A stretch of DNA of 64,000 nucleotides. It comes from Chlorobiota bacterium. GTDB taxonomy: Bacteria; Bacteroidota; Ignavibacteria; OLB7. Location of the stretch: positions 1,908 through 65,907 of the forward strand of contig JAGWAZ010000001.1 in NCBI GenBank assembly GCA_021296135.1. Direction: 5' to 3'. Below, piece after piece: positions 3,398 to 52,901 of the stretch (the stretch's first letter is position 1; each line of letters begins with the position of its first letter). Under the pieces are notes generated by a model. It did not search any database. It saw only the letters and a program-made list of their open reading frames with translations, and was not told the origin of the DNA. The translations under genes and the position numbers were made by a program.

Positions 3398-5103
3398 AAT
3401 CGGTGCGATGTCCCTGGATAGTCCCAATCGTTCTTCTGATCTCCGGCAGTTTCCAGGCATTCGGTCAGGCTCACGGTGAGCACGACGACCATCTTCACTC
3501 TCTGATCGATGGTGATTATCCTGTCTGTGGGACACATCTCATGTGGCAACTTCAAGTAAACGAGGAGAAACTTGATGATAAGGGAAGGGAATTGCTGCGC
3601 CAGTATCGCGTAACCGATCAGCCGACCATGCAGCGCAACATCGTCAGCTATGACGGGCACTTCAGAATCCACTACGACATTGATGGCAAACATGCTCCAA
3701 GCCCTGTTGATCAGGATAGCAACGGTATTCCCGATTATATCGACTCGGTCGATTTCTATATGGAACTGGCCTGGAAGAAGGAGATTGAGGAATGTGGATT
3801 TGCTCCTCCACCCCCGGATAACATCCGTCCCGGTGTGGGTGGAATAGATGGTCTCGTCGATGTCTTTGTACAGGCACTCTCCAACAGTATCTACGGTTTT
3901 GCTCTACCGGAACCGGGCGGAGAGATTGGTTCAAGAAGCGTTGGCTACCTTATTCTTGACAACGATTATGTCGGATATCCGACTCCCGGTATCGCCGGAC
4001 TGCGCGTTACGAGCGCACATGAATTTCATCATATTGTGCAGTTCGGTGCATATATCAACGACTATTCACAGGGAGCAATTTTCGAAGCGACGTCGACATG
4101 GATGGAATTCAAAGTACATCCCGATCTGACCGATTATCGCCTCTATTTCAATAGATTCCTCAAGCAACCACATGCCTTCTCGTTCGCTACCAACGACGTA
4201 AGCGATGGCATCACAGGATATGCTCATATGCACTACCTGCAATCTCTCGTTCAACAGCTTGACCCCAAGATTGTCAGGGAAATATGGGATCAGTTCAAAA
4301 GCAGTGGAAAGGCCTTTGATGCAATCGATGCCACACTTCGAGCCCGGAATGCCGGAATCAACCTGACCAACAGCTTTTGCACGTTTGCACGATGGAGCTA
4401 CTTCACTGGTTCAAACGCAGTCGATACAATGTTCTTCGCAAAAGCTGATCTCTATCCAACTATCAGATCAGTCTCAACCTTGATTCTCGACGAAGACCTG
4501 GAGAAAGTGATTCCGAACTCCCTCTCCCCACTTTCATTTGGCTTGTGGAGACTCGTTGTGCCTCGTTCCGATCAGTTCGACCCGGACACAGTTGATTTCC
4601 TGATAACAAACGCTCGATCAATGCTCGGGACCGGCGGCCCTTCGGTCAGTAGACCGGAAGACTTCACACTCTTTGTCAGTCAGTCGCCTCGGGGTGGCTA
4701 CACACCAATACTCTACCGTAACGACACACTCTACTATCGACTCGATGCTCCTCACCAGGACTTTTGCGTTGAGACATTCTTCAACGGTAGCCGCGGCATT
4801 CTGGTTACTGTCAACCCTTTGCCTCAACCCTTTGTGAATGATGGAGCCGACCAGATGGTGTTCGCTGTAGACCTGAGCGGTATCGCCATCACGAGAGTGG
4901 AGCTTGACATCTATTCGGCATCAATGACAAAAGTTGCCCGAGTTGAGAGAAATGGCCTTGAGACTCGGGAGAATGTTCAAGGCGTTATCTGGGATGGCAG
5001 GACATCTTCGGGAGAATTTGCCCCAAGTGGTGTCTATATCTATACGCTTGCGATCAATGGCAGCGCACCATCGGTCGGGAAATTTGCTGTTGTCAGGAAA
5101 TGA
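3394..5103 (+). CDS. Secreted HExxH zinc metallopeptidase-like protein with a T9SS C-terminal sorting domain. Family unassigned.
   Basis: N-terminal signal peptide. SAHEFHHIVQFGAY carries HExxH. The C-terminal ~80 aa (...GVIWDGRTSSGEFAPSGVYIYTLAINGSAPSVGKFAVVRK) matches the Por_Secre_tail pattern. Confidence 0.55.
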   Translation: MKSVRCPWIVPIVLLISGSFQAFGQAHGEHDDHLHSLIDGDYPVCGTHLMWQLQVNEEKLDDKGRELLRQYRVTDQPTMQRNIVSYDGHFRIHYDIDGKHAPSPVDQDSNGIPDYIDSVDFYMELAWKKEIEECGFAPPPPDNIRPGVGGIDGLVDVFVQALSNSIYGFALPEPGGEIGSRSVGYLILDNDYVGYPTPGIAGLRVTSAHEFHHIVQFGAYINDYSQGAIFEATSTWMEFKVHPDLTDYRLYFNRFLKQPHAFSFATNDVSDGITGYAHMHYLQSLVQQLDPKIVREIWDQFKSSGKAFDAIDATLRARNAGINLTNSFCTFARWSYFTGSNAVDTMFFAKADLYPTIRSVSTLILDEDLEKVIPNSLSPLSFGLWRLVVPRSDQFDPDTVDFLITNARSMLGTGGPSVSRPEDFTLFVSQSPRGGYTPILYRNDTLYYRLDAPHQDFCVETFFNGSRGILVTVNPLPQPFVNDGADQMVFAVDLSGIAITRVELDIYSASMTKVARVERNGLETRENVQGVIWDGRTSSGEFAPSGVYIYTLAINGSAPSVGKFAVVRK

Positions 5104-8462: not shown

Positions 8463-9986
8463 TTACGTCTGATTGTAATAGACCTGATTTATTTTCTTTT
8501 CGATGTAGGTTAGGAAGGCCCCTTCGCTTAATGGTTCACCACATATTTCATTTGTTAGTTCAGCCGGACTTTTCGCTTTTCCCCAGCGATGAACCTTCTC
8601 ACGCAGCCATGACAACAGATCCCCGAACTCCCCACGTTCTATCTGTTTATGGTGCTCGGGAAGATCTTTCAGCATGGCTTGGTAGAACATCGCCGCATAC
8701 AGTTTGCCAAGAGAGTAGCTTGGGAAATATCCATGACCACCGAACGACCAGTGTACGTCCTGAAGACATCCCTCAGCATCATTTGCGGGAGTAATCCCCA
8801 GGTACTCCTCCATTTTTGTATTCCAGGCTTCCGGTATATCGTCAACGTTCATCCGCCCGTTGATCAGATCATCCTCGATCTCAAATCTCAGAATGATATG
8901 CAGGTTGTAGGTCAACTCATCGGCCTCAACCCGTATCATACTCGATTTCATTACGTTGACGATTCTGAAGAAACTGTCGGCTGAGATATCGGAAAGTCGT
9001 TCAGGGAACTGCGATTGCAAGGATGGATAGGCCCACTTCCAGAACTCCAGACTCCGCCCTACCATGTTTTCCCAGAAGAGGGACTGTGATTCGTGAATAC
9101 CCATCGATGTTCCATCGGCCAGAGGAGTGCGGGAGTATGCTTTGTCGATACCCTGCTCATACATGCCATGGCCCGCTTCGTGGATCAGACCAAAGAGGCA
9201 GCTCCGAAGATCGTCCCTGTATACTCTCGTTGTTAAACGAACATCACGGATTCCGAATGACGCACAGAACGGATGGGTAGAGAGATCGACCCGACCATCG
9301 GTAAAGTTAAATCCGAGTTTCTTTATGACCTCACGTGCAAACGAAAGCTGCGCGCTGGGATCAAAATCCGTAAAGAGGACTGCATCGGAGATGTCTGCTC
9401 CAGACTGATCTATTTTGTCGAGGAGTCGTGCCGTTCCCTCTTGCAATCGTTCAAAGACCGGACGCAACTGTTCTACCTTCATCCCCGGTTCATACAGATC
9501 AATCAGTGCATCGTACGGATTCTCTTTGTATCCAAGGTATTGAGCGTGTCTCCTCTTGATATCAATGATCTTTGCAAGGTTATCCCGAAAGATCGAGAAG
9601 TCACTTTTGCTTCGCGCCTTTTTCCAGGATTGCTGTGCAAGTGAAGTGACCTTTGACATCTCCCGAACAAATTCATCCGGCAACTTTACTGCTTGCTCAC
9701 GTTCCCGGGAGAACTCACGCAGAGCCGCTATCTGCCACTCTGAAAGATCTGCCGCACTGCCATTTGATACCAACTCTTCAACAAGTTTGCCCGCTTTATC
9801 CGAGGTCATCATCTGGTGAATCAAGGCATTAAGCGTTGCAATCTGCTCGGCCCGTTCTTCGGCCGCTCCATCGGGCATGTACGTCTCCTGATCCCAGCCC
9901 AACACAGAAGAAGCAGCAGTAAGATCGCTGATTGTTCTGGTCGTTGACAGAAATTCATCAAAAGTCTGATTTGTCGTTGATCCCAT
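8463..9986 (-). CDS. M32 carboxypeptidase (Taq-like metallocarboxypeptidase)
   Basis: 507 aa. HEAGHGMYEQG (HExxH), HESQS and DIR-type M32 motifs. Confidence 0.8.
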   Translation of the reverse strand: MGSTTNQTFDEFLSTTRTISDLTAASSVLGWDQETYMPDGAAEERAEQIATLNALIHQMMTSDKAGKLVEELVSNGSAADLSEWQIAALREFSREREQAVKLPDEFVREMSKVTSLAQQSWKKARSKSDFSIFRDNLAKIIDIKRRHAQYLGYKENPYDALIDLYEPGMKVEQLRPVFERLQEGTARLLDKIDQSGADISDAVLFTDFDPSAQLSFAREVIKKLGFNFTDGRVDLSTHPFCASFGIRDVRLTTRVYRDDLRSCLFGLIHEAGHGMYEQGIDKAYSRTPLADGTSMGIHESQSLFWENMVGRSLEFWKWAYPSLQSQFPERLSDISADSFFRIVNVMKSSMIRVEADELTYNLHIILRFEIEDDLINGRMNVDDIPEAWNTKMEEYLGITPANDAEGCLQDVHWSFGGHGYFPSYSLGKLYAAMFYQAMLKDLPEHHKQIERGEFGDLLSWLREKVHRWGKAKSPAELTNEICGEPLSEGAFLTYIEKKINQVYYNQT

Positions 9987-44653: not shown

Positions 44654-45544
44654 CTATCCTTCCAACGCATTAGCACCAGAGACAATCTCAAGAATTTCTG
44701 TTGTAATTGCTGCCTGACGAGCCTTGTTATATTCAAGCTTCAAATCACGCGCAAGGTCTTTTGCATTCCTTGTCGCGTTGTCCATGGCTGTCATCCGTGC
44801 TCCATGCTCTGCTGCATTTGACTCCAGCAGACCGTTCCACATCTGAGTATTGAGATGTTTTGGAATCAATGCGTTCAATAACTCAACAGAGGATGGCTCA
44901 AAAATATACTCGATGTTATAGCCAGAAGCGGTCTTGGCACGTTCTCCGCTAACAATTGGTTCAACAGGAAGGAACTGATTAACGGCAATTTTCTGCCTGA
45001 TAACCGAACGGAATTCATTGTGTATCAACTCAACCTTATCGTAATGCCCCTCCAGGAACTTGTCCTGAATTTCGCCAACGATCTTCTGAGCAACTGCAAA
45101 GTTCAGATCGTTGAAGATACCCGGATATTTATTGACAACGTTATAGCCACGCTTATCAAAGAAATCGACAGATCGTTTACCAACGCAGATCAGCTCTACA
45201 GCTCCAGCCTTATTCACCTCTCCATAGGTATTGCGAACTCGGTGCTGAGCCGCTTTCAGAACGTTGCTGTTGAAAGGACCACAGAGACCACGATCAGCCG
45301 TAACAACTACAATTCCAACTCGGTGGGTCTCACGCTGTTGAAAGTATGGGCTGATAGCCGTCTCCATTGACTCGGCCAGGTGTCCGAGAATCTCCCGGAG
45401 CTTCCCTGCATAGGGTCGTGCCTGAATGATTGCATCCTGCGCACGCCGCAATTTCGCAGCGGCAACCATCTTCATTGCCTGCGTAATCTTGGCCGTGTTT
45501 TGAACACCACGGATACGAGTCCGGATTTTTCTGTACTGTCCCAT
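44654..45544 (-). CDS. atpG: ATP synthase F1 gamma subunit
   Basis: MGQYRKIRTRIRGVQNTAKITQAMKMVAAAKLRRAQ... Confidence 0.9.
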   Translation of the reverse strand: MGQYRKIRTRIRGVQNTAKITQAMKMVAAAKLRRAQDAIIQARPYAGKLREILGHLAESMETAISPYFQQRETHRVGIVVVTADRGLCGPFNSNVLKAAQHRVRNTYGEVNKAGAVELICVGKRSVDFFDKRGYNVVNKYPGIFNDLNFAVAQKIVGEIQDKFLEGHYDKVELIHNEFRSVIRQKIAVNQFLPVEPIVSGERAKTASGYNIEYIFEPSSVELLNALIPKHLNTQMWNGLLESNAAEHGARMTAMDNATRNAKDLARDLKLEYNKARQAAITTEILEIVSGANALEG

Positions 45545-45545
45545 T

Positions 45546-47117
45546 CTATGCTACTGTCGCCATTTCTTGTTCGGTGACAGTAAAGCCGGCAGAGAAATCG
45601 TTGAGTGTGCTGTTCAAAAGATTTGTGACCTCTTCGTTAAGCACTTTTTCCTTTGCAATTTTCGGAAGCAACTCAGGCTGCTTCATCTTGACATACTCAA
45701 GATATTCTTTTTCAAAACGCTTTACGTCCTCAAGGGGAACCTTATCCAAGTATCCACTGGTTCCGGCATAAATGACCGCTATCTGCTCTTCGACAGGCAT
45801 AGGCACATACTGCCTCTGCTTCAGGAGCTCCACAAGACGCGAACCGCGAAGGAGTAACTGCTGGGTCGATTTATCGAGATCGGAACCGAATTTGGCAAAG
45901 GCCTCAAGCTCACGATACTGCGCAAGATCGAGCTTCAACGTACCTGCAATCTTCTTCATCGCTTTGATCTGGGCGTTTCCTCCTACGCGAGATACCGAGA
46001 TACCAACATCGATAGCAGGACGAACACCGGCGTTGAAGAGACCGGGCAAGAGATAGATTTGACCATCAGTGATTGAAATCACATTTGTCGGAATGTAGGC
46101 CGATGGATCGCTTTCCTGAGTTTCGATAACAGGCAAGGCAGTTAATGAACCACCGCCATACTCAGCGTCGAGCTTAGCAGCACGTTCGAGAAGACGTGAG
46201 TGAAGATAGAAGACATCACCCGGATAGGCTTCGCGTCCCGGAGGACGACGGAGTAGCAGGGAAATCTGACGATAGGCGGCCGCCTGCTTCGTCAAATCAT
46301 CATATACAGCCAATGCATGGCGACCCGAATCACGGAAGTACTCTCCCATAGCGGCACCGGAGTATGGTGCAATAAACTGAAGCGGAGCCGGGTCAGAGGC
46401 GTTTGCAACAACGACGGTCGTGTAGTCAAGCGCACCGTTGTTCTTTAACGTCTCAACAACGTTGGCAACTGTCGATGCTTTCTGACCAATGTTGACGTAG
46501 ATGCAATAGACCGGATCGATACCAAGTTCTTTTGCCTCCTCCGTGTGCGTAAACCTCTGATTGATAATCGTATCGATCGCGACCGCCGTCTTTCCTGTCT
46601 GGCGGTCACCGATAATCAACTCACGTTGCCCGCGACCGATCGGAATCATTGCGTCGATGGCTTTCAAACCGGTCTGCAACGGTTCATTCACAGGATATCG
46701 CGTGATGACGCCTGGAGCTTTCCGCTCGATAGCAAGGACATGGGGTGTATCAATCGGACCGTGTCCATCAAGTGGGGCGCCAAGCGGATTGACCACACGC
46801 CCCAGAAGGGCCTCACCAACCGGGACCTGTGCGACCTTACCGGTACGCTTGACTGTGTCTCCTTCCTTGACAAGCTTGTCACCTCCAAAGAGAATCACAC
46901 CGACGTTATCCTCTTCAAGGTTCAATGCCATTCCCATGACGCCGTTTGGAAACTCTACAAGCTCTGAGGCAAGCACATTTGATAATCCGTAGAGACGAGC
47001 AACACCATCACCTACCTCAAGGACGGTGCCAACATCAAAGAGATCGACTTCGCTGTCGAATCCACTTAACTGTTTCCGGAGAATCGCCGATACTTCATCG
47101 GGACGGACTTCTACCAT
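45546..47117 (-). CDS. atpA: ATP synthase F1 alpha subunit
   Basis: [19 protein letters not shown]-loop, 523 aa. Confidence 0.95.
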
Positions 47118-47167
47118 TATTCTTCAGCCGTTATCGTTAATGTCTAATTGAATATTGTTCTATGCCA

Positions 47168-47731
47168 TTACAATGTCGGAGTCCAGGAACTTGCTTCTGC
47201 AGCAAGCGTTTCGTGGAGCCGTTCAAGTTGTCTGCTGACAGAGGCATCAATCATCAGATCATCGATTCGAGCAGTGAAACCACCGATCAAATCCCTGTCA
47301 AGATGATAATCTGCTTGTATACTCTGCCCGGTTAGCTCAGTAAGTCGTTGCTCGATTTGACTTTTAATCTTATGGTTCAACTCAGTAGCACTCGTGATTT
47401 TTGCGGGGGAGATGCCCCGCTCTTTCTCCAGCTGTTTGCGAAATGAGAGGAGAACGCCCGGTATAATCGCAGCTCTTCCTTTCTTCGTCATCAGTTCAAG
47501 AAAACTGAGAACCAGGTTGCTCACCTTATCCTGAAAGATATCAGCAATCAGCTTTGCCTTCGTTTCAACGGGAATTGTTGGTTTGGCAAGAAGATTCTGG
47601 AGATCACGGGAACCTTCTATTGCATAGTCAAGCGTCTTGAAGTCCTCAACTACCGTCTCAAGGTTTCCTTGCTCGTGTGCGACCTCCAGTACCGCCTTTG
47701 CATATCGGTGTGAAGCTCTTGTTTCAATCAT
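47168..47731 (-). CDS. atpH: ATP synthase F1 delta subunit (OSCP)
   Basis: 187 aa, positioned between atpF and atpA, with an OSCP-like N-terminus. Confidence 0.8.
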   Translation of the reverse strand: MIETRASHRYAKAVLEVAHEQGNLETVVEDFKTLDYAIEGSRDLQNLLAKPTIPVETKAKLIADIFQDKVSNLVLSFLELMTKKGRAAIIPGVLLSFRKQLEKERGISPAKITSATELNHKIKSQIEQRLTELTGQSIQADYHLDRDLIGGFTARIDDLMIDASVSRQLERLHETLAAEASSWTPTL

Positions 47732-47755
47732 AATCTCCTTTCTGCTTCTACAGGC

Positions 47756-48244
47756 TTAGTTCGTCACTTCAGTTGCTTCATTCAGATATGCTTCGACGAG
47801 TCGCTGACCACGTTCCTGGTCGATCGATTCTTTGAGTATTTTTTCCGAAGCACTGACAGCTAAGGCTGCAACTTCAGAGCGCAGCTGATTCAGTGCTTCT
47901 TTCTTGCTACGATCAATTTCAACCCTGGCACGATCTATCAACTCTCGTGCCTCCTCATCGGCCTTGCCCATTGCCTCATCACGAACTTTCTGGGCATATT
48001 CTCTACTTTCGCGGAGCAATTCCTGAGCTTCCGCTTCAGCCCGGGCCATTGCCCGGCGATTATCAGCAATGAGCTGTTTTGCCTCTTCTCTGGCCTTTTT
48101 AGCCTGTTCAATCGCATCATTGATTGTACTCTCTCTCTTTTCAAGAGCTTGAGTAATAGGCTTCCATCCCAGCTTGGCGAGGACAAAAAGAAGGATCAAA
48201 AAGTTGATGATGGTCCAGATTATGGGACCGATGTTAATATCAAC
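47756..48244 (-). CDS. atpF: ATP synthase Fo subunit b. Start uncertain: alternatives at 48298 and 48367.
   Basis: Start chosen at MFVDINIGPIIWTIINFLILLFVL. Single N-terminal TM segment followed by an A/E/R-rich coiled coil. Confidence 0.7.
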   Translation of the reverse strand, partial: VDINIGPIIWTIINFLILLFVLAKLGWKPITQALEKRESTINDAIEQAKKAREEAKQLIADNRRAMARAEAEAQELLRESREYAQKVRDEAMGKADEEARELIDRARVEIDRSKKEALNQLRSEVAALAVSASEKILKESIDQERGQRLVEAYLNEATEVTN

Positions 48245-48392
48245 AAACATGAGTTCGGTCTGAATAGTGACAAGATTTAACCCCACCTCATCAGCCATAC
48301 CTGAAGTATTCAGTGAATGACTGATGTGAATAAGCGGTCTGCCAGAACCCTCTAACAGGCCGCTCAATCAGGCTGTAAACAGGACTGCTCTC

Positions 48393-48626
48393 TTATGTAA
48401 CGAAAACCAGAAGAACGCAGATAACCAACGCAAAGAGGGCAATACCCTCGATAAGAGCGGCAGCGATAATCATTGTTGTACGGATATCACCAATAGCCTC
48501 CGGTTGACGTCCCTGCGCTTCAAGAGCAGCAGCAGCAAGACGGCCGATACCAAGACCCGGGCCAAAGACTGTGAGTGCTGCGCCAAGACCCGCAGCGAGA
48601 TAGGCCAATCCTTTTACTTCCATCAA
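48393..48626 (-). CDS. atpE: ATP synthase Fo subunit c
   Basis: 77-aa hairpin proteolipid with GLGAAL...GRQPE...IIAAALIEGIALFALV. Confidence 0.85.
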   Translation of the reverse strand: MMEVKGLAYLAAGLGAALTVFGPGLGIGRLAAAALEAQGRQPEAIGDIRTTMIIAAALIEGIALFALVICVLLVFVT

Positions 48627-48814
48627 AACCTCCGACAGATATGAAGATGTGTTCTGAAAATGACATCAATGTTAAAGACTTATAAAGTTACGGATGATCG
48701 TTCGTTTGCCGAACGGAGCATACTTTCAAAAAGGTTTCATTACGTGAACCATGACGAGCCAATTAAAGCCGATCTAATGGGCTGTTGCATGTTTCTCCTC
48801 CTCAATGGTATTTG

Positions 48815-49300
48815 AAATCACAAGCGGTATCATCCCAAACTTTGAACAAGATACGGATACGCCCGTTTTCAAGTTTATAGGCATACTGAAACTTCGCCGA
48901 ACGATATTTATGCTTTACTTTGGACCTTGGAGATTTAATGCGTCGGCCTTTCTTACCATTTTTCATCCAGTCAAAGAATCTTTAGTAAGCAAGGTGAATA
49001 CGGAATAATCACAGCATCAAGGGTGTCGTGTGTATCCATGCCCAGTACTTCTTTGTGTGTTTGAGCAATTTAGTAAGGTGAGGCTTAAGGCGATACCTGC
49101 CCGCATATTTTCCGAATATGCGATAATACCGCTTCTCCAAACGCAGAAAGTGGTTGTGGACATCCGCAAGTTCGTCGAGCATATTTGCCCAAACGTTTGT
49201 TCTTGGGATGACTGCGTATCTGATGTTTGTCGGTTCGCATCGTATACTCCAGCACCGTTCCTGATACCACTCGATTGGGCAGAACGCCCTGGGGCCTTTA
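48815..49300 (-). pseudogene. Degraded ORF of ~160 codons in a single frame, interrupted by two in-frame stops. It may be a remnant of a mobile element or intron-associated gene. Identity unknown.
   Basis: The minus-strand frame reads ...PIEWYQERCWSIRCEPTNIRYAVIPRTNVWANMLDELADVHNHFLRLEKRYYRIFGKYAGRYRLKPHLTKLLKHTKKYWAWIHTTPLML*LFRIHLAY*RFFDWMKNGKKGRRIKSPRSKVKHKYRSAKFQYAYKLENGRIRILFKVWDDTACDFKYH*. It is basic and W/Y/R/K-rich, as nucleic-acid-binding mobile-element proteins are. No intact ORF remains. Confidence 0.3.
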
Positions 49301-49369
49301 AACGGAAGAACCCGTCATCAGTGAGTGGCTGATGACGAGGCTCCCGTTATGTTCATCCAACACTGTGGA

Positions 49370-50515
49370 TTACTCAAAGAGTTGAAGTTCCCCGTCCTTG
49401 ACAATAAGTACAACCGGGTCATACATTGCCTCTCCGTTAGAATCGAAAGAGAAGTCACCTAAAATCGTGGGAAAATCCATAGTCTGCGCGAGTGCGTCCC
49501 GAATCGCGGTTGACTCTGTCGATTGCGCTTTCCCAATTGCATCAGCGAGAATATAGAGGGTTGCATACGATTGCGCTGCCCATAGTTCAGCCTCAATACC
49601 GTATTTCGCCCGATAATTCTGAATGAAGGCTTGGTTTCCCGGTGTGTCAGACATACTGGACCACCCGCTGAAAGATATCGCCCCCTCGGCAGCATCTCCC
49701 GCTTTTTGTACTTCGTCTCTGCTCAACTCGGGAACAATAAAGTGAACAGATTCGGGGATACCGATCTCGCGCCCTTGAATGAGAATCTGCCTCACCTCTG
49801 GTCCCAGTGCAGAGATGAAGAGTGCGTCAGGCTCCATGTCCATTATCTTGGTTAATTGCTCAGAAAAATCGGTATCGCCGGTTTGGAAGGTTTCGACCGT
49901 CAGAATCTCGACTCCATTCTCCTTTAGTGCTTCCCCGATTTCCTTGTTGCTACTTGTAGAGTAGACATCAATGCTATCATATATCGCCGCCACTTTTTTA
50001 TAGCCGAGTTTCTCCCGCGTCGCCATCACACCATTGGGAATCAGTATATCTGTGGCGAGAGGCGCACGGAAGATAAAATCTCCAATCCCGCTCAAACCAG
50101 CAGCAGAGGAGACCGAGCTAAAAGCTACCACCCCATTCTCTTGGGCAATCGGAAAAGCATCTTTGAGCTGAGTTGAGATAGCTATTCCGACGATGGCAGG
50201 TACGCCGCGATCGACCAATTGCTGCACAGCTTCCTTCGCTCCCGCTACGGTGCTCTGATCGTCAACGATGTCGAACGTGATGTTCAGGTTCGCATCACTG
50301 AGCATGTTAATCTCCTCTCGTGCTAACTCAAAGCCGCGTCGCATTGGGAAGCCATACGATTCGTTTTGCCCTGTCAACGGTACGACAACACCGATCGAAA
50401 TCTCTTCAACAGTAGTCACCGGAGGCATTTCCTCCCCTTCACAACCGGAAACCCCCACAGCCAAAGCAACAATTGCCAATACAGATGCGAATGCTATAAG
50501 TCCTTTTGTCTTCAT
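49370..50515 (-). CDS. LivJ/LivK-like (Peripla_BP_6) branched-chain amino acid ABC substrate-binding lipoprotein, with no cognate permease/ATPase nearby
   Basis: Lipoprotein signal ...LAVGVSGCEGEE. Type I SBP fold pattern. Sits inside the atp operon. Confidence 0.7.
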   Translation of the reverse strand: MKTKGLIAFASVLAIVALAVGVSGCEGEEMPPVTTVEEISIGVVVPLTGQNESYGFPMRRGFELAREEINMLSDANLNITFDIVDDQSTVAGAKEAVQQLVDRGVPAIVGIAISTQLKDAFPIAQENGVVAFSSVSSAAGLSGIGDFIFRAPLATDILIPNGVMATREKLGYKKVAAIYDSIDVYSTSSNKEIGEALKENGVEILTVETFQTGDTDFSEQLTKIMDMEPDALFISALGPEVRQILIQGREIGIPESVHFIVPELSRDEVQKAGDAAEGAISFSGWSSMSDTPGNQAFIQNYRAKYGIEAELWAAQSYATLYILADAIGKAQSTESTAIRDALAQTMDFPTILGDFSFDSNGEAMYDPVVLIVKDGELQLFE

Positions 50516-50693
50516 GTTGTATCTCCTTTGTTATTATAATGAAGGGTCAGGCAGTGCCCATCAAGAAAAACATCACCGCCCTCAACCAGATTCCGTTATC
50601 GTCAGAAAAAACGAGTTTTTGTTATGAAGCCACTTAATATACTCCAAAAATCGCTTTGAAGCCAAGTATTCCAACTTAATCGGCGTGAAAAAC

Positions 50694-51767
50694 TTAACCG
50701 TAGTCATGGGAGTGCATACCCATGCTTGCAAAGACTGCAACGAGAATCGTGAAAATGTAAGCCTGAATAAAGGCTATAAGTATTTCAAGCAGGTTAATGA
50801 AGAGCGAAAACGCGACGGAGACCGGGGCAAATTCAAGGCCGAGAACAAAAATCAACCCGATCAATGAAAGAAGAACAACGTGCCCACCCGTCATGTTCGC
50901 AAAGAGTCGAACGCAAAGAGCAAAAGGTTTTGCAAAAAGACCCAGGATTTCGACCGGAACCATAATCAGCCACATAGCTATAGGTGTTCCTCCAGTCAAG
51001 TGTTTGAACCAAGCCATTATTCCAGCATCCCGAATCGCCGCATATTGGATGACAAAGAAGGCGACAATTGCAAGACCAGCAGTAACACTCAAACTTCCTG
51101 TTGCAGAGTGCCCTCCGGGAATCAGTCCGAGAAGGTTCATCACGAGGATAAACGTAAAGAAGGTGAACAGGATCGGAGTAAGCGACCTTCCGACTTTTCC
51201 ACTTCCCACGTTCGGAATCACCAGATTGTCTCTGAGATATTCTATCAACCCCTCCATTGCGTTGAAGAACCCTTTATGAGCACGACCTCCCAGCTTTTTA
51301 GCTTTGCGTCCCATCGGAATAAAGATGGCAAGCAGAACCAGCATTGCGAGCCACTGAAATGCAACGAGACTGGTGATCGATATATCGAGCGCTGGAGTTT
51401 GATGATCTGAGACGCGCACAATCGTCTTGTGATCTTCCCTTTCTCTATTCGTCCAGTCCTTCTTGACTTCTTCTGGCAAATGATACTTCAGAATATACTC
51501 CCCCTCTTGTTCCATTGCATCCACGTTCGCATAGAAATGGAATCCATCATCAATGAGGATAACCGGCAAATCGACAATGTGAAGAGGGCCGACCTCGATC
51601 TCGCGGTGATCCCCAAGAGTACCGATCAGTGCCTGAAACGGCCCCTCTTCCTTACCATGTCCCTCATCTGAATGCTGATCAGTATTGTGTCCAGGCTCAT
51701 TCTCTGCCAGAAGCTCATCAGCCTGGGCAATCAGTTCATGGTTGACGTCAAGTTTCGGATCGTTCAT
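50694..51767 (-). CDS. atpB: ATP synthase Fo subunit a with a ~130-aa hydrophilic N-terminal extension
   Basis: C-terminal half carries the a-subunit helices (...LCVRLFANMTGGHVVL... conserved Arg). The N-terminal acidic extension is common in Bacteroidota/Chlorobi atpB. Confidence 0.85.
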   Translation of the reverse strand: MNDPKLDVNHELIAQADELLAENEPGHNTDQHSDEGHGKEEGPFQALIGTLGDHREIEVGPLHIVDLPVILIDDGFHFYANVDAMEQEGEYILKYHLPEEVKKDWTNREREDHKTIVRVSDHQTPALDISITSLVAFQWLAMLVLLAIFIPMGRKAKKLGGRAHKGFFNAMEGLIEYLRDNLVIPNVGSGKVGRSLTPILFTFFTFILVMNLLGLIPGGHSATGSLSVTAGLAIVAFFVIQYAAIRDAGIMAWFKHLTGGTPIAMWLIMVPVEILGLFAKPFALCVRLFANMTGGHVVLLSLIGLIFVLGLEFAPVSVAFSLFINLLEILIAFIQAYIFTILVAVFASMGMHSHDYG

Positions 51768-51871: not shown

Positions 51872-51927
51872 ACTTTGCACTTCTAACTTCCTACTTCCAA
51901 CTTCTAACTTCCTACTTCTAACTTCCA
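51872..51927. repeat. Heptamer tandem repeat (ACTTCNA/ACTTCCT) x7-8. On the atp coding strand it reads GGAAGTAGAAGTTAGAAGTTGGAAGTAGGAAGTTAGAAGT.
   Basis: Plus strand reads acttcta acttcct acttcca acttcta acttcct acttcta acttcca. It lies ~110 nt upstream of the atpB start and overlaps the last codons of the atpI-like gene. Confidence 0.7.
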
Positions 51928-52295
51928 ACGTGTTTGGACATGACCTTGACAAGAAAGACAATTTCCTGAATCAGAAAGACGAAATAGAATCCCAACAGGA
52001 AGAAGGTCAATGTCTGCGGATCAAATCCCTCGGTCAATAAATAGGCAAAGACCAGCAGCATTATCAACACCCGTGCTCCCATCCCCCCGAAGTATGCAGC
52101 CATGAAGACGAAGTTCTCTTTATCTATCGACCACTCAATAATCCACAACCCGACAACAGCATTGATAAAGGCCATAGCGCCGGCAGCATATATGGCGCTT
52201 CGAGTATCATCGAACCAAGCAATAACCGGGTACGCAAGTAAGGCTGCCAGAATACCGGCCAGTATCAGAACCGGTTTCGGGAAACGGAATCTCAT
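51918..52295 (-). CDS. atpI: ATP synthase protein I-like small membrane protein
   Basis: 125-aa, 4-TM hydrophobic protein immediately upstream of atpB. Confidence 0.45.
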   Translation of the reverse strand: MRFRFPKPVLILAGILAALLAYPVIAWFDDTRSAIYAAGAMAFINAVVGLWIIEWSIDKENFVFMAAYFGGMGARVLIMLLVFAYLLTEGFDPQTLTFFLLGFYFVFLIQEIVFLVKVMSKHVGS

Positions 52296-52306: not shown

Positions 52307-52597
52307 TTAATCCTCTAACCCTTTGGCTGACGCGTCCATCTGATCGTTACTTCGTTTATCCACCGACTTCTGTTTTGACGTTCCAATATTCAGAGCAGTT
52401 CTGATAAAACTCATCATCCCACCAGTTGCACCGAAAACAAGACCGGCAAGCAATAACCACGGTTGCGTCTCAAACTTTGTATCCAACCACCACCCTAAAG
52501 CCGCAAAAGCTAAAATGGTAGCAGTTAACTGGATCCCTATGCCAAGAAGCGAACTGACTTTCCTTACGTCGTTGCCTGCACCAAATGACTTCATCAA
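52307..52597 (-). CDS. AtpZ/AtpI-family small membrane protein (F1Fo-associated)
   Basis: 96-aa, two-TM protein with ...LGIGIQLTATILAFAALGWWLD..., at the head of the atp cluster. Confidence 0.45.
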   Translation of the reverse strand: MMKSFGAGNDVRKVSSLLGIGIQLTATILAFAALGWWLDTKFETQPWLLLAGLVFGATGGMMSFIRTALNIGTSKQKSVDKRSNDQMDASAKGLED

Positions 52598-52901
52598 AGC
52601 TCACCGTGAACGTTGTGAACTCATGACTCCTGACTCCTCGTATCCTGAAAGGGACAAAACTACGGAAGGGAGACTCTTCATCGAACCCTTTTCTCCCAAC
52701 ACTTTGTATCCTGAGCTGAAAACGAGGGTAAAAGTTGAAAGCGTTACTGAGAGCAATGTTTCCTCTTCTTTACATGTAATCCCTTTCACAGCTGTGGTAA
52801 CACTTGCAATTTACACTTTGTTTGTACCAACCTAAATAGCTATAATGTATTCTAATAGTACCAGCCTTAGTTATCCAACAGTTGCACAAAATCCACTGCT
52901 C

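What the first reader, a model, noticed from the sequence alone, without database searches (positions are those of the whole stretch)
48627..50693. F1Fo ATP synthase operon interrupted between atpB and atpE by a 2-kb insert
The cluster order is atpZ-atpI-atpB | insert | atpE-atpF-atpH-atpA-atpG, all on the minus strand. In nearly all bacteria atpB and atpE are adjacent.

The insert carries two things:
- a LivJ-like branched-chain amino acid binding lipoprotein with no ABC partners;
- ~740 bp (48627-49369) holding a degraded ORF with in-frame stops.

This suggests past insertion of foreign or mobile DNA into the operon. It raises the question of how atpE-G are transcribed: from a new internal promoter, or by read-through.
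Basis: partly seen in the sequence, partly recalled or inferred. Interest (0 to 1): 0.5.

Follow-up and report, generated by a model that had tools for sequence, protein, structure and literature searches.

The report
Foreign gene inserted into atpB's end
A sponge-associated Kapabacteria-like bacterium carries about 1.9 kb of DNA from an unrelated co-resident lineage (probably Poribacteria) inserted into the last codons of its ATP synthase atpB gene; this is a cleanly resolved but ordinary case of horizontal gene transfer.

Summary
On the minus strand the order is atpZ, atpI-like, atpB, 2,067 bp, then atpE-F-H-A-G. In 74 related or more distant genomes where atpE could be located, the atpB-atpE gap is only 31-506 bp and holds no extra gene.

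The insert proper is about 1.9 kb (~50699 to ~48805):
- **Binding-protein cassette (50699-49280).** This is an intact orphan HAAT-family (Peripla_BP_6) lipoprotein gene with its own upstream region and terminator hairpin. It is 77% nucleotide-identical to loci from large-genome sponge-metagenome bacteria. The named homologs are Candidatus Poribacteria.
- **"Degraded ORF" (49240-48805).** This is a real pseudogene, the first ~150 codons of an IS605-family tnpB (best E = 3.7e-48). It has frameshifts and two stops, and it lacks the nuclease domains.

The DNA landed inside the 3' end of atpB:
- AtpB now ends ...HSHDYG*, and the stop codon comes from the insert.
- The orphaned original end (EEEKHATAH*, 48803-48774) survives downstream.
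- The ancestral atpE leader (48773-48627) is intact. It carries a promoter-like element conserved across the lineage.

This is a new instance of a known kind of event, of modest interest.

The parts
52307..52597 (-). atpZ (ATPase_gene1), first gene of the upstream atp unit. The motif CCGTAGTTTTG lies 65 nt upstream of it, at 52655-52662.
   Evidence: Pfam PF09527, E = 3e-16; motif found.
51918..52295 (-). atpI-like small membrane protein, named by position only.
   Evidence: No Pfam or NCBIfam hit. A protein of 107-133 aa without a Pfam hit sits at the same place in the relatives.
50694..51767 (-). atpB (Fo subunit a), truncated at its C-terminus. It ends ...MGMHSHDYG* in place of the lineage-conserved ...HD.HEEEGHA[AT]AH*. 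The last codon (GGT) and the stop (TAA, 50696-50694) come from the insert.
   Evidence: PF00119, E = 1e-54; alignment of 16 AtpB sequences; junction sequences.
50516..50699 (-). Upstream non-coding module that arrived with the binding-protein gene. It contains a sigma-70-like TGGGCA-16-TATAAT match (50560-50533), a conserved 26-nt core ACAAAAACTCGTTTTTTCTGACGATA (50622-50597) and a GGAG ribosome-binding site.
   Evidence: 71% identical to the region upstream of the homolog in L012. The core is 92-96% identical to the regions upstream of paralogs in L011. Promoter scan.
49370..50515 (-). Intact orphan HAAT-family (Peripla_BP_6) substrate-binding lipoprotein, 381 aa, with lipobox VSGC.
   Evidence: PF13458, E = 4e-52. 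77% nucleotide and 73-75% amino-acid identity to L012 and L011. dN/dS is 0.23-0.26. The nearest solved structures are amino-acid-binding proteins such as 3td9 and 4nqr.
49301..49348 (-). Strong stem-loop just after the binding-protein stop codon. It is a likely terminator or 3'-end hairpin, with a weak U-tract.
   Evidence: An 88-nt segment folds at -39.5 kcal/mol, z = -5.0. The hairpin is also present downstream of homologs in L012 and L011. Homology to the donor cassette ends near 49280.
48805..49240 (-). tnpB pseudogene (IS200/IS605-family OrfB). It covers residues ~1-150 of a ~387-aa protein. It has one +1 frameshift near 49189, two further indels and two in-frame stops, and it is cut off at the junction. 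The RuvC and zinc-ribbon parts are absent.
   Evidence: 49 homologs, best E = 3.7e-48. Full-length relatives carry PF01385 and PF07282. tblastn with P0297 matches its residues 15-150 to window 49234-48805. 71-72% nucleotide identity to L107 and L108, with the indels visible.
48774..48803 (-). Relic of the original atpB 3' end: GAGGAGGAGAAACATGCAACAGCCCATTAG, which reads EEEKHATAH*.
   Evidence: It aligns to the last 10 codons of atpB in L009 and L007. The degenerate pattern is unique in the window and appears in 0 of 100 shuffles.
48627..48773 (-). Ancestral atpB-atpE spacer and atpE leader, left intact. It holds block 1 TGAAACCTTTTT (48739-48728), block 2 CCGTAACTTTA with the -7-like box TAACTTTA (48690-48683), and a GGAGG ribosome-binding site.
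   Evidence: 84.6% identical to L009 over 48749-48301. The two-block element is conserved in 18 genomes with 48-49 nt spacing.
44654..48623 (-). atpE-atpF-atpH-atpA-atpG, the downstream atp unit. atpD and atpC are not in the cluster.
   Evidence: Pfam hits for the called genes; ORFs.

Best explanation
In an ancestor of this sponge-associated Kapabacteria/Ignavibacteria-like species, a linear fragment of about 1.9 kb of foreign DNA was integrated by illegitimate (non-homologous or micro-homology) recombination. It entered the last ~10 codons of atpB.

**What the fragment was.** It came from a Poribacteria-like bacterium living in the same sponge. It held:
- a complete gene cassette for an orphan HAAT-family binding lipoprotein, with its own upstream region and terminator hairpin;
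- the 5' third of a neighbouring IS605-family tnpB.

**Consequences shown by the sequence.**
- AtpB lost its conserved acidic, His-rich tail and now ends in YG, with a stop codon supplied by the insert.
- The old atpB end persists as a 30-nt relic.
- The tnpB piece is dead.
- The binding-protein gene is intact.

**Consequences inferred.**
- The binding-protein gene now sits 178 nt behind atpB with no terminator in between. It is therefore probably transcribed as the fourth gene of the atpZ-atpI-atpB unit, perhaps also from its own promoter, and it ends at its strong hairpin.
- atpE-F-H-A-G are probably transcribed from the promoter-like element that precedes atpE throughout this lineage. The insertion left that element untouched, which would explain why an insertion into an essential cluster was tolerated.
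- The binding protein most likely captures an amino-acid-like solute in the periplasm and passes it to a transporter encoded elsewhere, as its homologs in the donor lineage also lack adjacent ABC partners.
For: **The insert is derived.**
- Relatives with 67-80% AtpB identity share the flanking genes (SurA-like, HisK, response regulator, atpZ, atpI-like, then Peripla_BP_2, YqeY, MutS2) but have atpB directly followed by atpE.
- The atpB-atpE gap is 31-506 bp in 74 genomes, against 2,067 bp here. None of the fetched atp loci has a LivJ-like gene there.

**The DNA is foreign.**
- Window 50699-49280 is 77% nucleotide-identical to L012/L013 and 76% to L011. The match includes ~180 bp upstream and ~90 bp downstream of the gene.
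- The best protein hits (65-74% identity) are on contigs of up to 7 Mb. The named ones are Candidatus Poribacteria.
- Apart from the window species' own contig, no contig in the AtpB-relative list carries such a homolog.
- Kapabacteria and Poribacteria genomes are reported from the same sponge, Petrosia ficiformis (PMC12648040). One contig of this species carries the prefix PetF.

**tnpB remnant:**

**Insertion inside atpB:**

**Fixed in the population:** contigs from other samples are 99.9% identical across the locus.

**The binding-protein gene is maintained.**
- It is full length relative to its homologs, and dN/dS is 0.23-0.26.
- The adjacent 430-bp tnpB piece carries five disabling changes.

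**atpE promoter-like element:**
- 18 genomes share TGAAAnCTTTT, then 48-49 nt, then CGTAnnTTTG..GTCT, placed 65-85 nt before the atpE start codon.
- The same CCGTAGTTTTG motif lies 65 nt before atpZ.
- TAnnTTTG is the -7 consensus of Bacteroidota promoters. That consensus is from my own knowledge, not from a tool.
Against: - No transcript data exist, so both transcription statements are inferences.
- The window's -7-like box reads TAACTTTA. It has lost the final G that most of the compared genomes keep, including all the closest relatives.
- The strict TAnnTTTG motif is rare upstream of other genes in the window, so its role as a general promoter box here is unproven.
- The hairpin after the binding-protein gene has a poor U-tract and was not called by the terminator scan. 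Read-through into atpE therefore remains possible.
- The donor is not identified. The best match has dS of about 0.57. The best-matching contigs carry no taxon name. No sampled genome shows this binding-protein gene next to this tnpB.
- Base composition gives no signal: GC is about 48-50% in both lineages.
- The junctions are ambiguous by 3-4 nt. The integration mechanism is assigned by exclusion, because no target duplication, terminal repeats or tnpA were found.
- Part of the tnpB decay may have happened before the transfer.
Confidence: 0.8

Rival explanations
1. IS200/IS605-type transposition. The binding-protein gene travelled as cargo of a tnpB-bearing insertion sequence that transposed into atpB, and the element's 3' part was deleted later.
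For: - A tnpB remnant lies directly beside the cassette, on the same strand.
- Relatives of both the tnpB and the binding protein come from the same kind of large sponge-metagenome genomes.
Against: - The binding-protein gene lies upstream of the tnpB start, outside where the element's left end would be.
- There is no tnpA, no right end and no sub-terminal hairpin pair.
- The tnpB is cut exactly where the atpB relic begins, and at most about two codons of the target are unaccounted for. A secondary deletion would have had to stop precisely at the original junction.
- None of the eight homolog loci examined has a tnpB beside the binding-protein gene.
Confidence: 0.1
2. Two or more separate events. 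The binding-protein cassette and the IS605-type element entered at different times, with later deletions.
For: About 40 nt (49240-49279) between the end of cassette homology and the start of tnpB homology match neither source. This is compatible with an IS left end that inserted next to the cassette.
Against: - No other copy of this tnpB lies in the 64-kb window or in the close relatives' loci.
- All detected relatives come from the same Poribacteria-like pool as the binding protein.
- One fragment cut from a donor genome explains both with a single event.
Confidence: 0.07
3. Ancestral architecture, or an assembly chimera. Either the arrangement is old and was lost in relatives, or it is a mis-join of sponge-metagenome reads.
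For: None beyond the arrangement itself.
Against: - The relic of the atpB 3' end lies downstream of the insert.
- Every relative examined lacks the insert.
- The non-coding flanks are homologous to another lineage.
- 13 contigs from independent assemblies, including long-read ones, agree at 99.9% identity.
Confidence: 0.02

Closest known systems
Horizontally acquired gene islets in sponge symbionts (mobile-element-rich symbiont genomes with inter-phylum gene sharing, as reviewed in 'The Sponge Hologenome', PMC4850255)
   Same: - The DNA is absent from relatives.
- It is nucleotide-level similar to a different phylum living in the same host.
- A transposon-related gene remnant lies beside the cargo.
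- The cargo belongs to the substrate-binding-protein class. LivK-type binding proteins rank second among detected bacterial protein functions in a sponge metaproteome (PMC6081418).
   Different: - The islet is very small: one gene plus a third of a tnpB.
- It lies inside the coding end of an essential ATP synthase gene.
- Both junctions are resolved to within 3-4 nt, and a relic of the displaced coding end is preserved.
LivJ/LivK branched-chain amino-acid binding proteins of the HAAT ABC importer family (E. coli LivJ: PDB 1z15, 2liv)
   Same: Same Pfam family (Peripla_BP_6) and same length. The nearest solved structures are amino-acid-binding proteins.
   Different: - The similarity is distant: E = 6e-14 to E. 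coli LivJ, and 101 bits against the 477-bit NCBIfam cut-off.
- It is lipid-anchored.
- There are no livHMGF partners here or next to five of the homologs examined. In L011 eight paralogs stand in tandem next to a TonB-dependent receptor.
- The ligand is unknown.
TnpB (OrfB) of IS200/IS605-family insertion sequences, the RNA-guided nuclease ancestor of Cas12
   Same: The remnant is homologous to the N-terminal ~150 residues of proteins that carry OrfB_IS605 (PF01385) and the Cas12f1-like TNB zinc ribbon (PF07282).
   Different: - It is a dead fragment with frameshifts and stops.
- It has no RuvC domain or zinc ribbon, no 3' end that could encode the guide RNA, and no tnpA.
Split atp clusters and internal atp promoters in other bacteria (for example, atpDC separated from atpBEFHAG in the Bacteroidota-Chlorobiota group)
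   Same: The cluster lacks atpD and atpC, and atpE probably has its own promoter.
   Different: Here the break between atpB and atpE is widened by foreign DNA in one species only. Relatives have a 137-506 bp spacer with no gene in it.

Membership tests
F1Fo ATP synthase gene cluster | Genes for subunits a, c, b, delta, alpha and gamma, recognisable by their family profiles, on one strand. | tested here: met
   PF00119, PF00137, PF00430, PF00213, PF00006 and PF00231.
F1Fo ATP synthase gene cluster | The atpI identity of the 125-aa protein at 51918-52295. | tested here: inconclusive
   No Pfam or NCBIfam hit. Only its position and its conservation in relatives support the name.
Horizontally acquired insertion | Absent at the same site in close relatives that keep the flanking synteny. 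| tested here: met
   L007, L009, L010, L015 and L017, plus 69 further genomes.
Horizontally acquired insertion | Nearest homologs lie in a different lineage, with similarity extending into non-coding flanks. | tested here: met
   77% nucleotide identity over 1,450 aligned positions, flanks included. Named homologs are Candidatus Poribacteria. The best-matching contigs carry no taxon name.
Horizontally acquired insertion | Base composition that deviates from the host genome. | tested here: not met
   Gene GC 0.498 against window GC 0.480. The donor-like loci are 0.48-0.50. This test is uninformative here.
Horizontally acquired insertion | Target-site duplication or terminal repeats at the junctions. 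| tested here: not met
   No flanking repeat was reported at the junctions. Only a possible 3-nt TAC occurs at both ends.
LivJ/LivK (HAAT) substrate-binding protein | A Peripla_BP_6 domain across the whole protein, scoring above the curated cut-off. | tested here: met
   178 bits against a cut-off of 31.7, covering residues 38-366.
LivJ/LivK (HAAT) substrate-binding protein | Reaches the cut-off of the NCBIfam high-affinity branched-chain amino-acid binding-protein model. | tested here: not met
   101 bits against a cut-off of 477.
LivJ/LivK (HAAT) substrate-binding protein | Encoded next to HAAT permease and ATPase genes (livHMGF). | tested here: not met
   None within 64 kb, and none next to the homologs in L011, L012, L014 and L109. 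The rest of the genome could not be searched.
TnpB / IS605 OrfB | Significant homology to proteins that carry the OrfB_IS605 and zinc-ribbon TNB domains. | tested here: met
   E = 3.7e-48. Full-length relatives have both domains. tblastn E = 4e-30 to residues 24-150 of P0297, and a second weaker match extends this to residue 15.
TnpB / IS605 OrfB | An intact reading frame that includes the RuvC nuclease and zinc-ribbon domains. | tested here: not met
   Three indels, two stops, and an end at about residue 150 of ~387.
Bacteroidota-type promoter upstream of atpE | A -7 box TAnnTTTG at a plausible distance from the gene, conserved among relatives. | tested here: inconclusive
   The strict motif is present in 10 of the 18 genomes compared, and the rest carry near-matches. 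The window has TAACTTTA. No start-site data exist, and the motif is rare upstream of other genes in the window.
Intrinsic terminator after the binding-protein gene | A GC-rich hairpin followed by a U-tract. | tested here: inconclusive
   The hairpin is strong (z = -5.0) and conserved in homologs. The U-tract is poor, and the scan did not call it.

The most novel reading that the evidence does not exclude
This family of orphan binding lipoproteins may be a mobile, symbiosis-associated trait. In Poribacteria-like genomes it is expanded into tandem arrays, and its members share a conserved ~190-nt upstream control module. Under this reading the family spreads between unrelated sponge-symbiont phyla together with IS605/TnpB elements. 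Its capture behind atpB would then give it constitutive, energy-linked expression, which selection has kept in this Kapabacteria species.
Probability: 0.2. Interest if true: 0.55.

Novelty: new member of a known kind. Interest (0 to 1): 0.35.

Why it matters
**What the case shows.** Both junctions, the donor-type flanks, a decaying mobile-element fragment and the displaced end of the target gene are all still readable.
- It shows that an essential, highly expressed gene cluster can absorb foreign DNA. This appears to need two conditions: the break falls in a dispensable tail, and it lies upstream of an existing internal promoter.
- It gives a concrete example of gene flow between sponge-symbiont phyla (Poribacteria-like to Kapabacteria-like).

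**What it points to.** It flags an expanded family of orphan binding proteins of unknown ligand that may matter for life inside sponges.

**What it does not show.** It reveals no new kind of system.

Tried and rejected
- **Rfam.** A permissive search (E up to 1) over 40-56 kb found nothing.
- **tRNA scan.** The only tRNA is at 927-1001, so this is not a tRNA-targeted island.
- **Repeat search across 48.3-50.9 kb.** It found only short, chance-level repeats. There are no terminal inverted repeats and no target duplication.
- **Generic sigma-70 promoter and terminator scans.** The counts did not exceed shuffled expectation.
- **Pfam on the joined pseudo-ORF.** It gave only a sub-threshold DUF5640 hit. 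The homology search was needed to identify tnpB.
- **Metagenome scan with the binding protein.** It returned only three loci at 68% identity plus distant ones, and no closer donor.
- **Cluster look-up for taxon names of the best hits.** It returned no names.
- **RNA structure in the cassette's upstream module.** RNAalifold gave -0.76 kcal/mol with little covariation, so the structure hypothesis was dropped.
- **Base composition as a transfer signal.** It was uninformative.
- **Enrichment of TAnnTTTG upstream of genes in the window.** It is weak: only 2 of 52 upstream regions carry it, and one of those is atpZ.
- **Protein with X at the stops.** I re-ran the search with the 101-codon open stretch.
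Full report
**1. What is there**

All the genes below are on the minus strand:

| Feature | Coordinates | Evidence |
|---|---|---|
| atpZ | 52307-52597 | PF09527 |
| atpI-like 125-aa membrane protein | 51918-52295 | no family hit; named by position only |
| atpB | 50694-51767 | PF00119 |
| 381-aa Peripla_BP_6 protein | 49370-50515 | PF13458, E = 4e-52 |
| apparently non-coding stretch (743 bp) | 48627-49369 | see section 4 |
| atpE | start ATG at 48623 | PF00137 |
| atpF, atpH, atpA, atpG | down to 44654 | Pfam hits |

atpD and atpC are not in the cluster.

The arrangement is not an assembly artefact. The identical binding protein is encoded on 13 contigs from independent assemblies, and one of them is a 3.4-Mb long-read contig. 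Six of these contigs were fetched, and they are 99.9% identical to the window across the locus. NCBI labels the organism 'Chlorobi/Chlorobiota bacterium'. Its nearest genome representatives are MAGs labelled Ignavibacteria or Candidatus Kapaibacterium. One contig comes from a JGI metagenome and carries the prefix PetF. Kapabacteria and Poribacteria MAGs are both reported from the sponge Petrosia ficiformis (PMC12648040).

**2. The arrangement is derived, not ancestral**

The closest relatives by AtpB identity are L009 (80%), L015 (77%), L007/L016 (76%), L017 (75%) and L010 (67%). Where contig length allows, they keep the whole neighbourhood: SurA-like, histidine kinase, response regulator, atpZ, atpI-like, atpB, atpE-F-H-A-G, Peripla_BP_2, YqeY and MutS2. 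In all of them atpB is followed directly by atpE.

Among 80 genome representatives plus these loci, atpE could be located downstream of atpB in 74. The gap from the atpB stop to the atpE start is 31-506 bp in those, against 2,067 bp in the window. None of the fetched atp loci has a homolog of the binding protein there.

**3. Where the inserted gene came from**

Window 50699-49280 aligns at 77% nucleotide identity to L012/L013 and at 76% to L011. The alignment covers about 180 bp upstream of the gene and about 90 bp downstream of it, including the hairpin after the stop codon.

The best protein hits outside the species itself are 65-74% identical. They sit on contigs of up to 7 Mb from sponge and marine metagenomes. 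The hits that carry a name are Candidatus Poribacteria. No sampled relative of the host therefore carries a close copy.

In the donor-like genomes the family is expanded and also 'orphan':
- L011 has eight paralogs in tandem next to a TonB-dependent receptor.
- L012, L014 and L109 have single copies without HAAT permeases.

GC content does not separate donor from host, at about 48-50% in both.

**4. The 'degraded ORF' is a tnpB pseudogene**

I joined the frame with X at its two stops and searched with it. The search found 49 proteins (best E = 3.7e-48, 47-68% identity). Several carry PF01385 or PF07282, and one is named Candidatus Poribacteria.

An exhaustive phmmer search with the 101-codon open stretch found 58 representatives. 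Only the part of the query downstream of the frameshift matched, and it matched the N-termini of the targets. The targets include full-length proteins of 370-451 aa. These have both OrfB_IS605 and the Cas12f1-like TNB zinc ribbon, so they are TnpB.

tblastn with one of them (P0297, 387 aa) places its residues 15-150 on window 49234-48805 and nowhere else in the window. Nucleotide alignment to two copies (L107, L108; 71-72% identity) shows a +1 frameshift near 49189 and two further indels. Two in-frame stops come on top of these. The true start is MRTDKHQIRSHPKNKRLG at 49240, in a different frame from the long open stretch. The nuclease half, any guide-RNA region and any tnpA are absent. Many database relatives are themselves truncated, at under 300 aa.

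**5. The insertion went into the atpB coding sequence**

All 15 aligned relatives end AtpB with ...HD.HEEEGHA[AT]AH*. The window protein ends ...MGMHSHDYG*. The last codon GGT and the stop TAA belong to the stretch that aligns with the donor-type upstream DNA (GGTTAAGTTTTTCA...).

The missing end is still present about 1.9 kb downstream. GAGGAGGAGAAACATGCAACAGCCCATTAG (EEEKHATAH*) lies at 48803-48774, immediately before the ancestral spacer. The degenerate pattern for this tail occurs once in the window and in none of 100 shuffles.

tnpB homology runs to 48805 and the relic starts at 48803, so the right junction is fixed to within 1-2 nt. The left junction lies between 50703 and 50699. A TAC stands at both ends, but this is too short to interpret. 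No longer duplication or terminal inverted repeat exists. At most about two target codons are unaccounted for, so this was a simple insertion.

**6. How integration most likely happened (inferred)**

The fragment starts in non-coding DNA upstream of one gene and ends in the middle of another gene. It has none of the ends of an insertion sequence. The most economical reading is that a random piece of donor chromosome was taken up and joined into a break in atpB by illegitimate recombination.

Transposition of an IS605-type element with cargo is less likely. The cargo lies outside the element's expected left end, and the tnpB stops exactly at the junction. A multi-step history cannot be excluded.

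**7. Consequences for expression (inferred)**

*Binding-protein gene.* It starts 178 nt after the atpB stop, and no terminator is predicted in between. It brought a sigma-70-like promoter match (10 of 12 positions) and a ribosome-binding site. It is followed by a strong hairpin at 49301-49348 (the 88-nt segment 49285-49372 folds at -39.5 kcal/mol, z = -5.0), which is also present after homologs. It is therefore probably expressed with atpZ-I-B, from its own promoter, or both.

*atpE to atpG.* The last ~150 bp before atpE are the ancestral spacer, 84.6% identical to L009 when taken together with atpE. Across 18 genomes of the lineage (AtpB 52-80% identical) this spacer has two conserved blocks:
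- TGAAAnCTTTT comes first.
- CGTAnnTTTG(C)..GTCT follows 48-49 nt later, 65-85 nt before the start codon.

The second block matches the Bacteroidota -7 promoter consensus TAnnTTTG. That consensus is from my own knowledge. The same CCGTAGTTTTG lies 65 nt upstream of atpZ. Several relatives also have strong hairpins between atpB and the first block.

The simplest reading is that atpE-G already had their own promoter before the insertion. The insertion fell just upstream of it, which would explain why it was tolerated.

Caveats:
- The window's box is TAACTTTA, with the final G lost.
- The strict motif is rare elsewhere in the window.
- The hairpin has a weak U-tract, so read-through is still possible.

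**8. Is the cargo kept by selection?**

The gene is full length with a conserved lipobox Cys. dN/dS against three homologs is 0.23-0.26. It has no disabling change over 1,146 bp, while the adjoining 430 bp of tnpB has five. Some of that tnpB decay may predate the transfer.

The insert is fixed in all sampled populations. Within-species divergence (0.1%) is too low for a separate test.

Function rests on family membership only. It is a HAAT-type binding protein whose nearest solved relatives bind amino acids, but it is far below the LivJ model cut-off. No partner transporter lies within 64 kb. The ligand and the partner are unknown.

**9. Comparison with known things, and verdict**

This is horizontal acquisition of a small gene islet with a mobile-element remnant. 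That is a well-known phenomenon, and it is thought to be common among sponge symbionts (reviews listed). Substrate-binding proteins of this KEGG class rank second among detected bacterial protein functions in a sponge metaproteome (PMC6081418).

What is unusual is the site and the preservation. The insertion is in the coding end of an essential ATP synthase gene. The stop codon is donated by the insert. A relic of the displaced end survives, and the downstream promoter-like element is intact.

I found no paper linking tnpB to Poribacteria. I did not search the literature for this locus itself.

I rate this a new member of a known kind, with interest 0.35.

Noticed in passing
window 48683-48739 and 52655-52662; L007, L009, L010, L015, L017-L030 upstream of atpE: A two-block non-coding element precedes atpE in 18 genomes of the Kapabacteria lineage: TGAAAnCTTTT, then 48-49 nt, then CGTAnnTTTG..GTCT. 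A matching CCGTAGTTTTG lies 65 nt upstream of atpZ. This may be a shared atp promoter or regulator site. The window's atpE copy has A in place of the otherwise conserved final G.
   Followed up: partly
L011 1490-11299: Eight paralogous orphan Peripla_BP_6 lipoprotein genes stand in tandem next to a TonB-dependent receptor gene, with no ABC permease or ATPase. This is a large expansion of the family in the donor-like genome.
   Followed up: no
window 50516-50699 (core 50597-50622); L011 near 4418-4443 and 8628-8653; L012 5820-6000: The ~190-nt upstream module of the cassette is shared by paralogs whose proteins are only 50-56% identical. The 26-nt core ACAAAAACTCGTTTTTTCTGACGATA is 92-96% identical and contains the inverted repeat AAAAAC/GTTTTT. 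It is probably an operator or promoter element. RNAalifold gave no convincing structure.
   Followed up: partly
P0241-P0289; L107 5001-5699; L108 3584-4120: Most relatives of this tnpB in the Poribacteria-like genomes are themselves truncated (100-300 aa of ~387) and scattered between unrelated genes. This points to an old, decaying IS605-type population.
   Followed up: partly
window 50694-51767 (AtpB residues 1-135 and the C-terminus): Subunit a in this lineage has a conserved ~135-residue N-terminal extension ahead of the Pfam ATP-synt_A domain (MNDP...LIAQ...GDHREIE.GPLHIVDLPVILIDDGFHFY). It also has a conserved acidic, His-rich C-tail, HEEEGHA[AT]AH. Neither has an assigned function. The window species has lost the tail.
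   Followed up: no
L007/L008 1-3660: In the relative GCA_020635205.1, genes matching Mu transposase domains (DDE_2, HTH_Tnp_Mu_2) and a Peptidase_S24 repressor-like gene replace the SurA-like and histidine-kinase genes upstream of the atp cluster. This neighbourhood has been hit by mobile DNA more than once in the lineage.
   Followed up: no
window 47756-48367: The mechanical ORF for atpF (203 aa, TTG start) is longer than the called gene in other assemblies (180 aa) and than those of relatives (163 aa). The real start is probably downstream of 48367.
   Followed up: no
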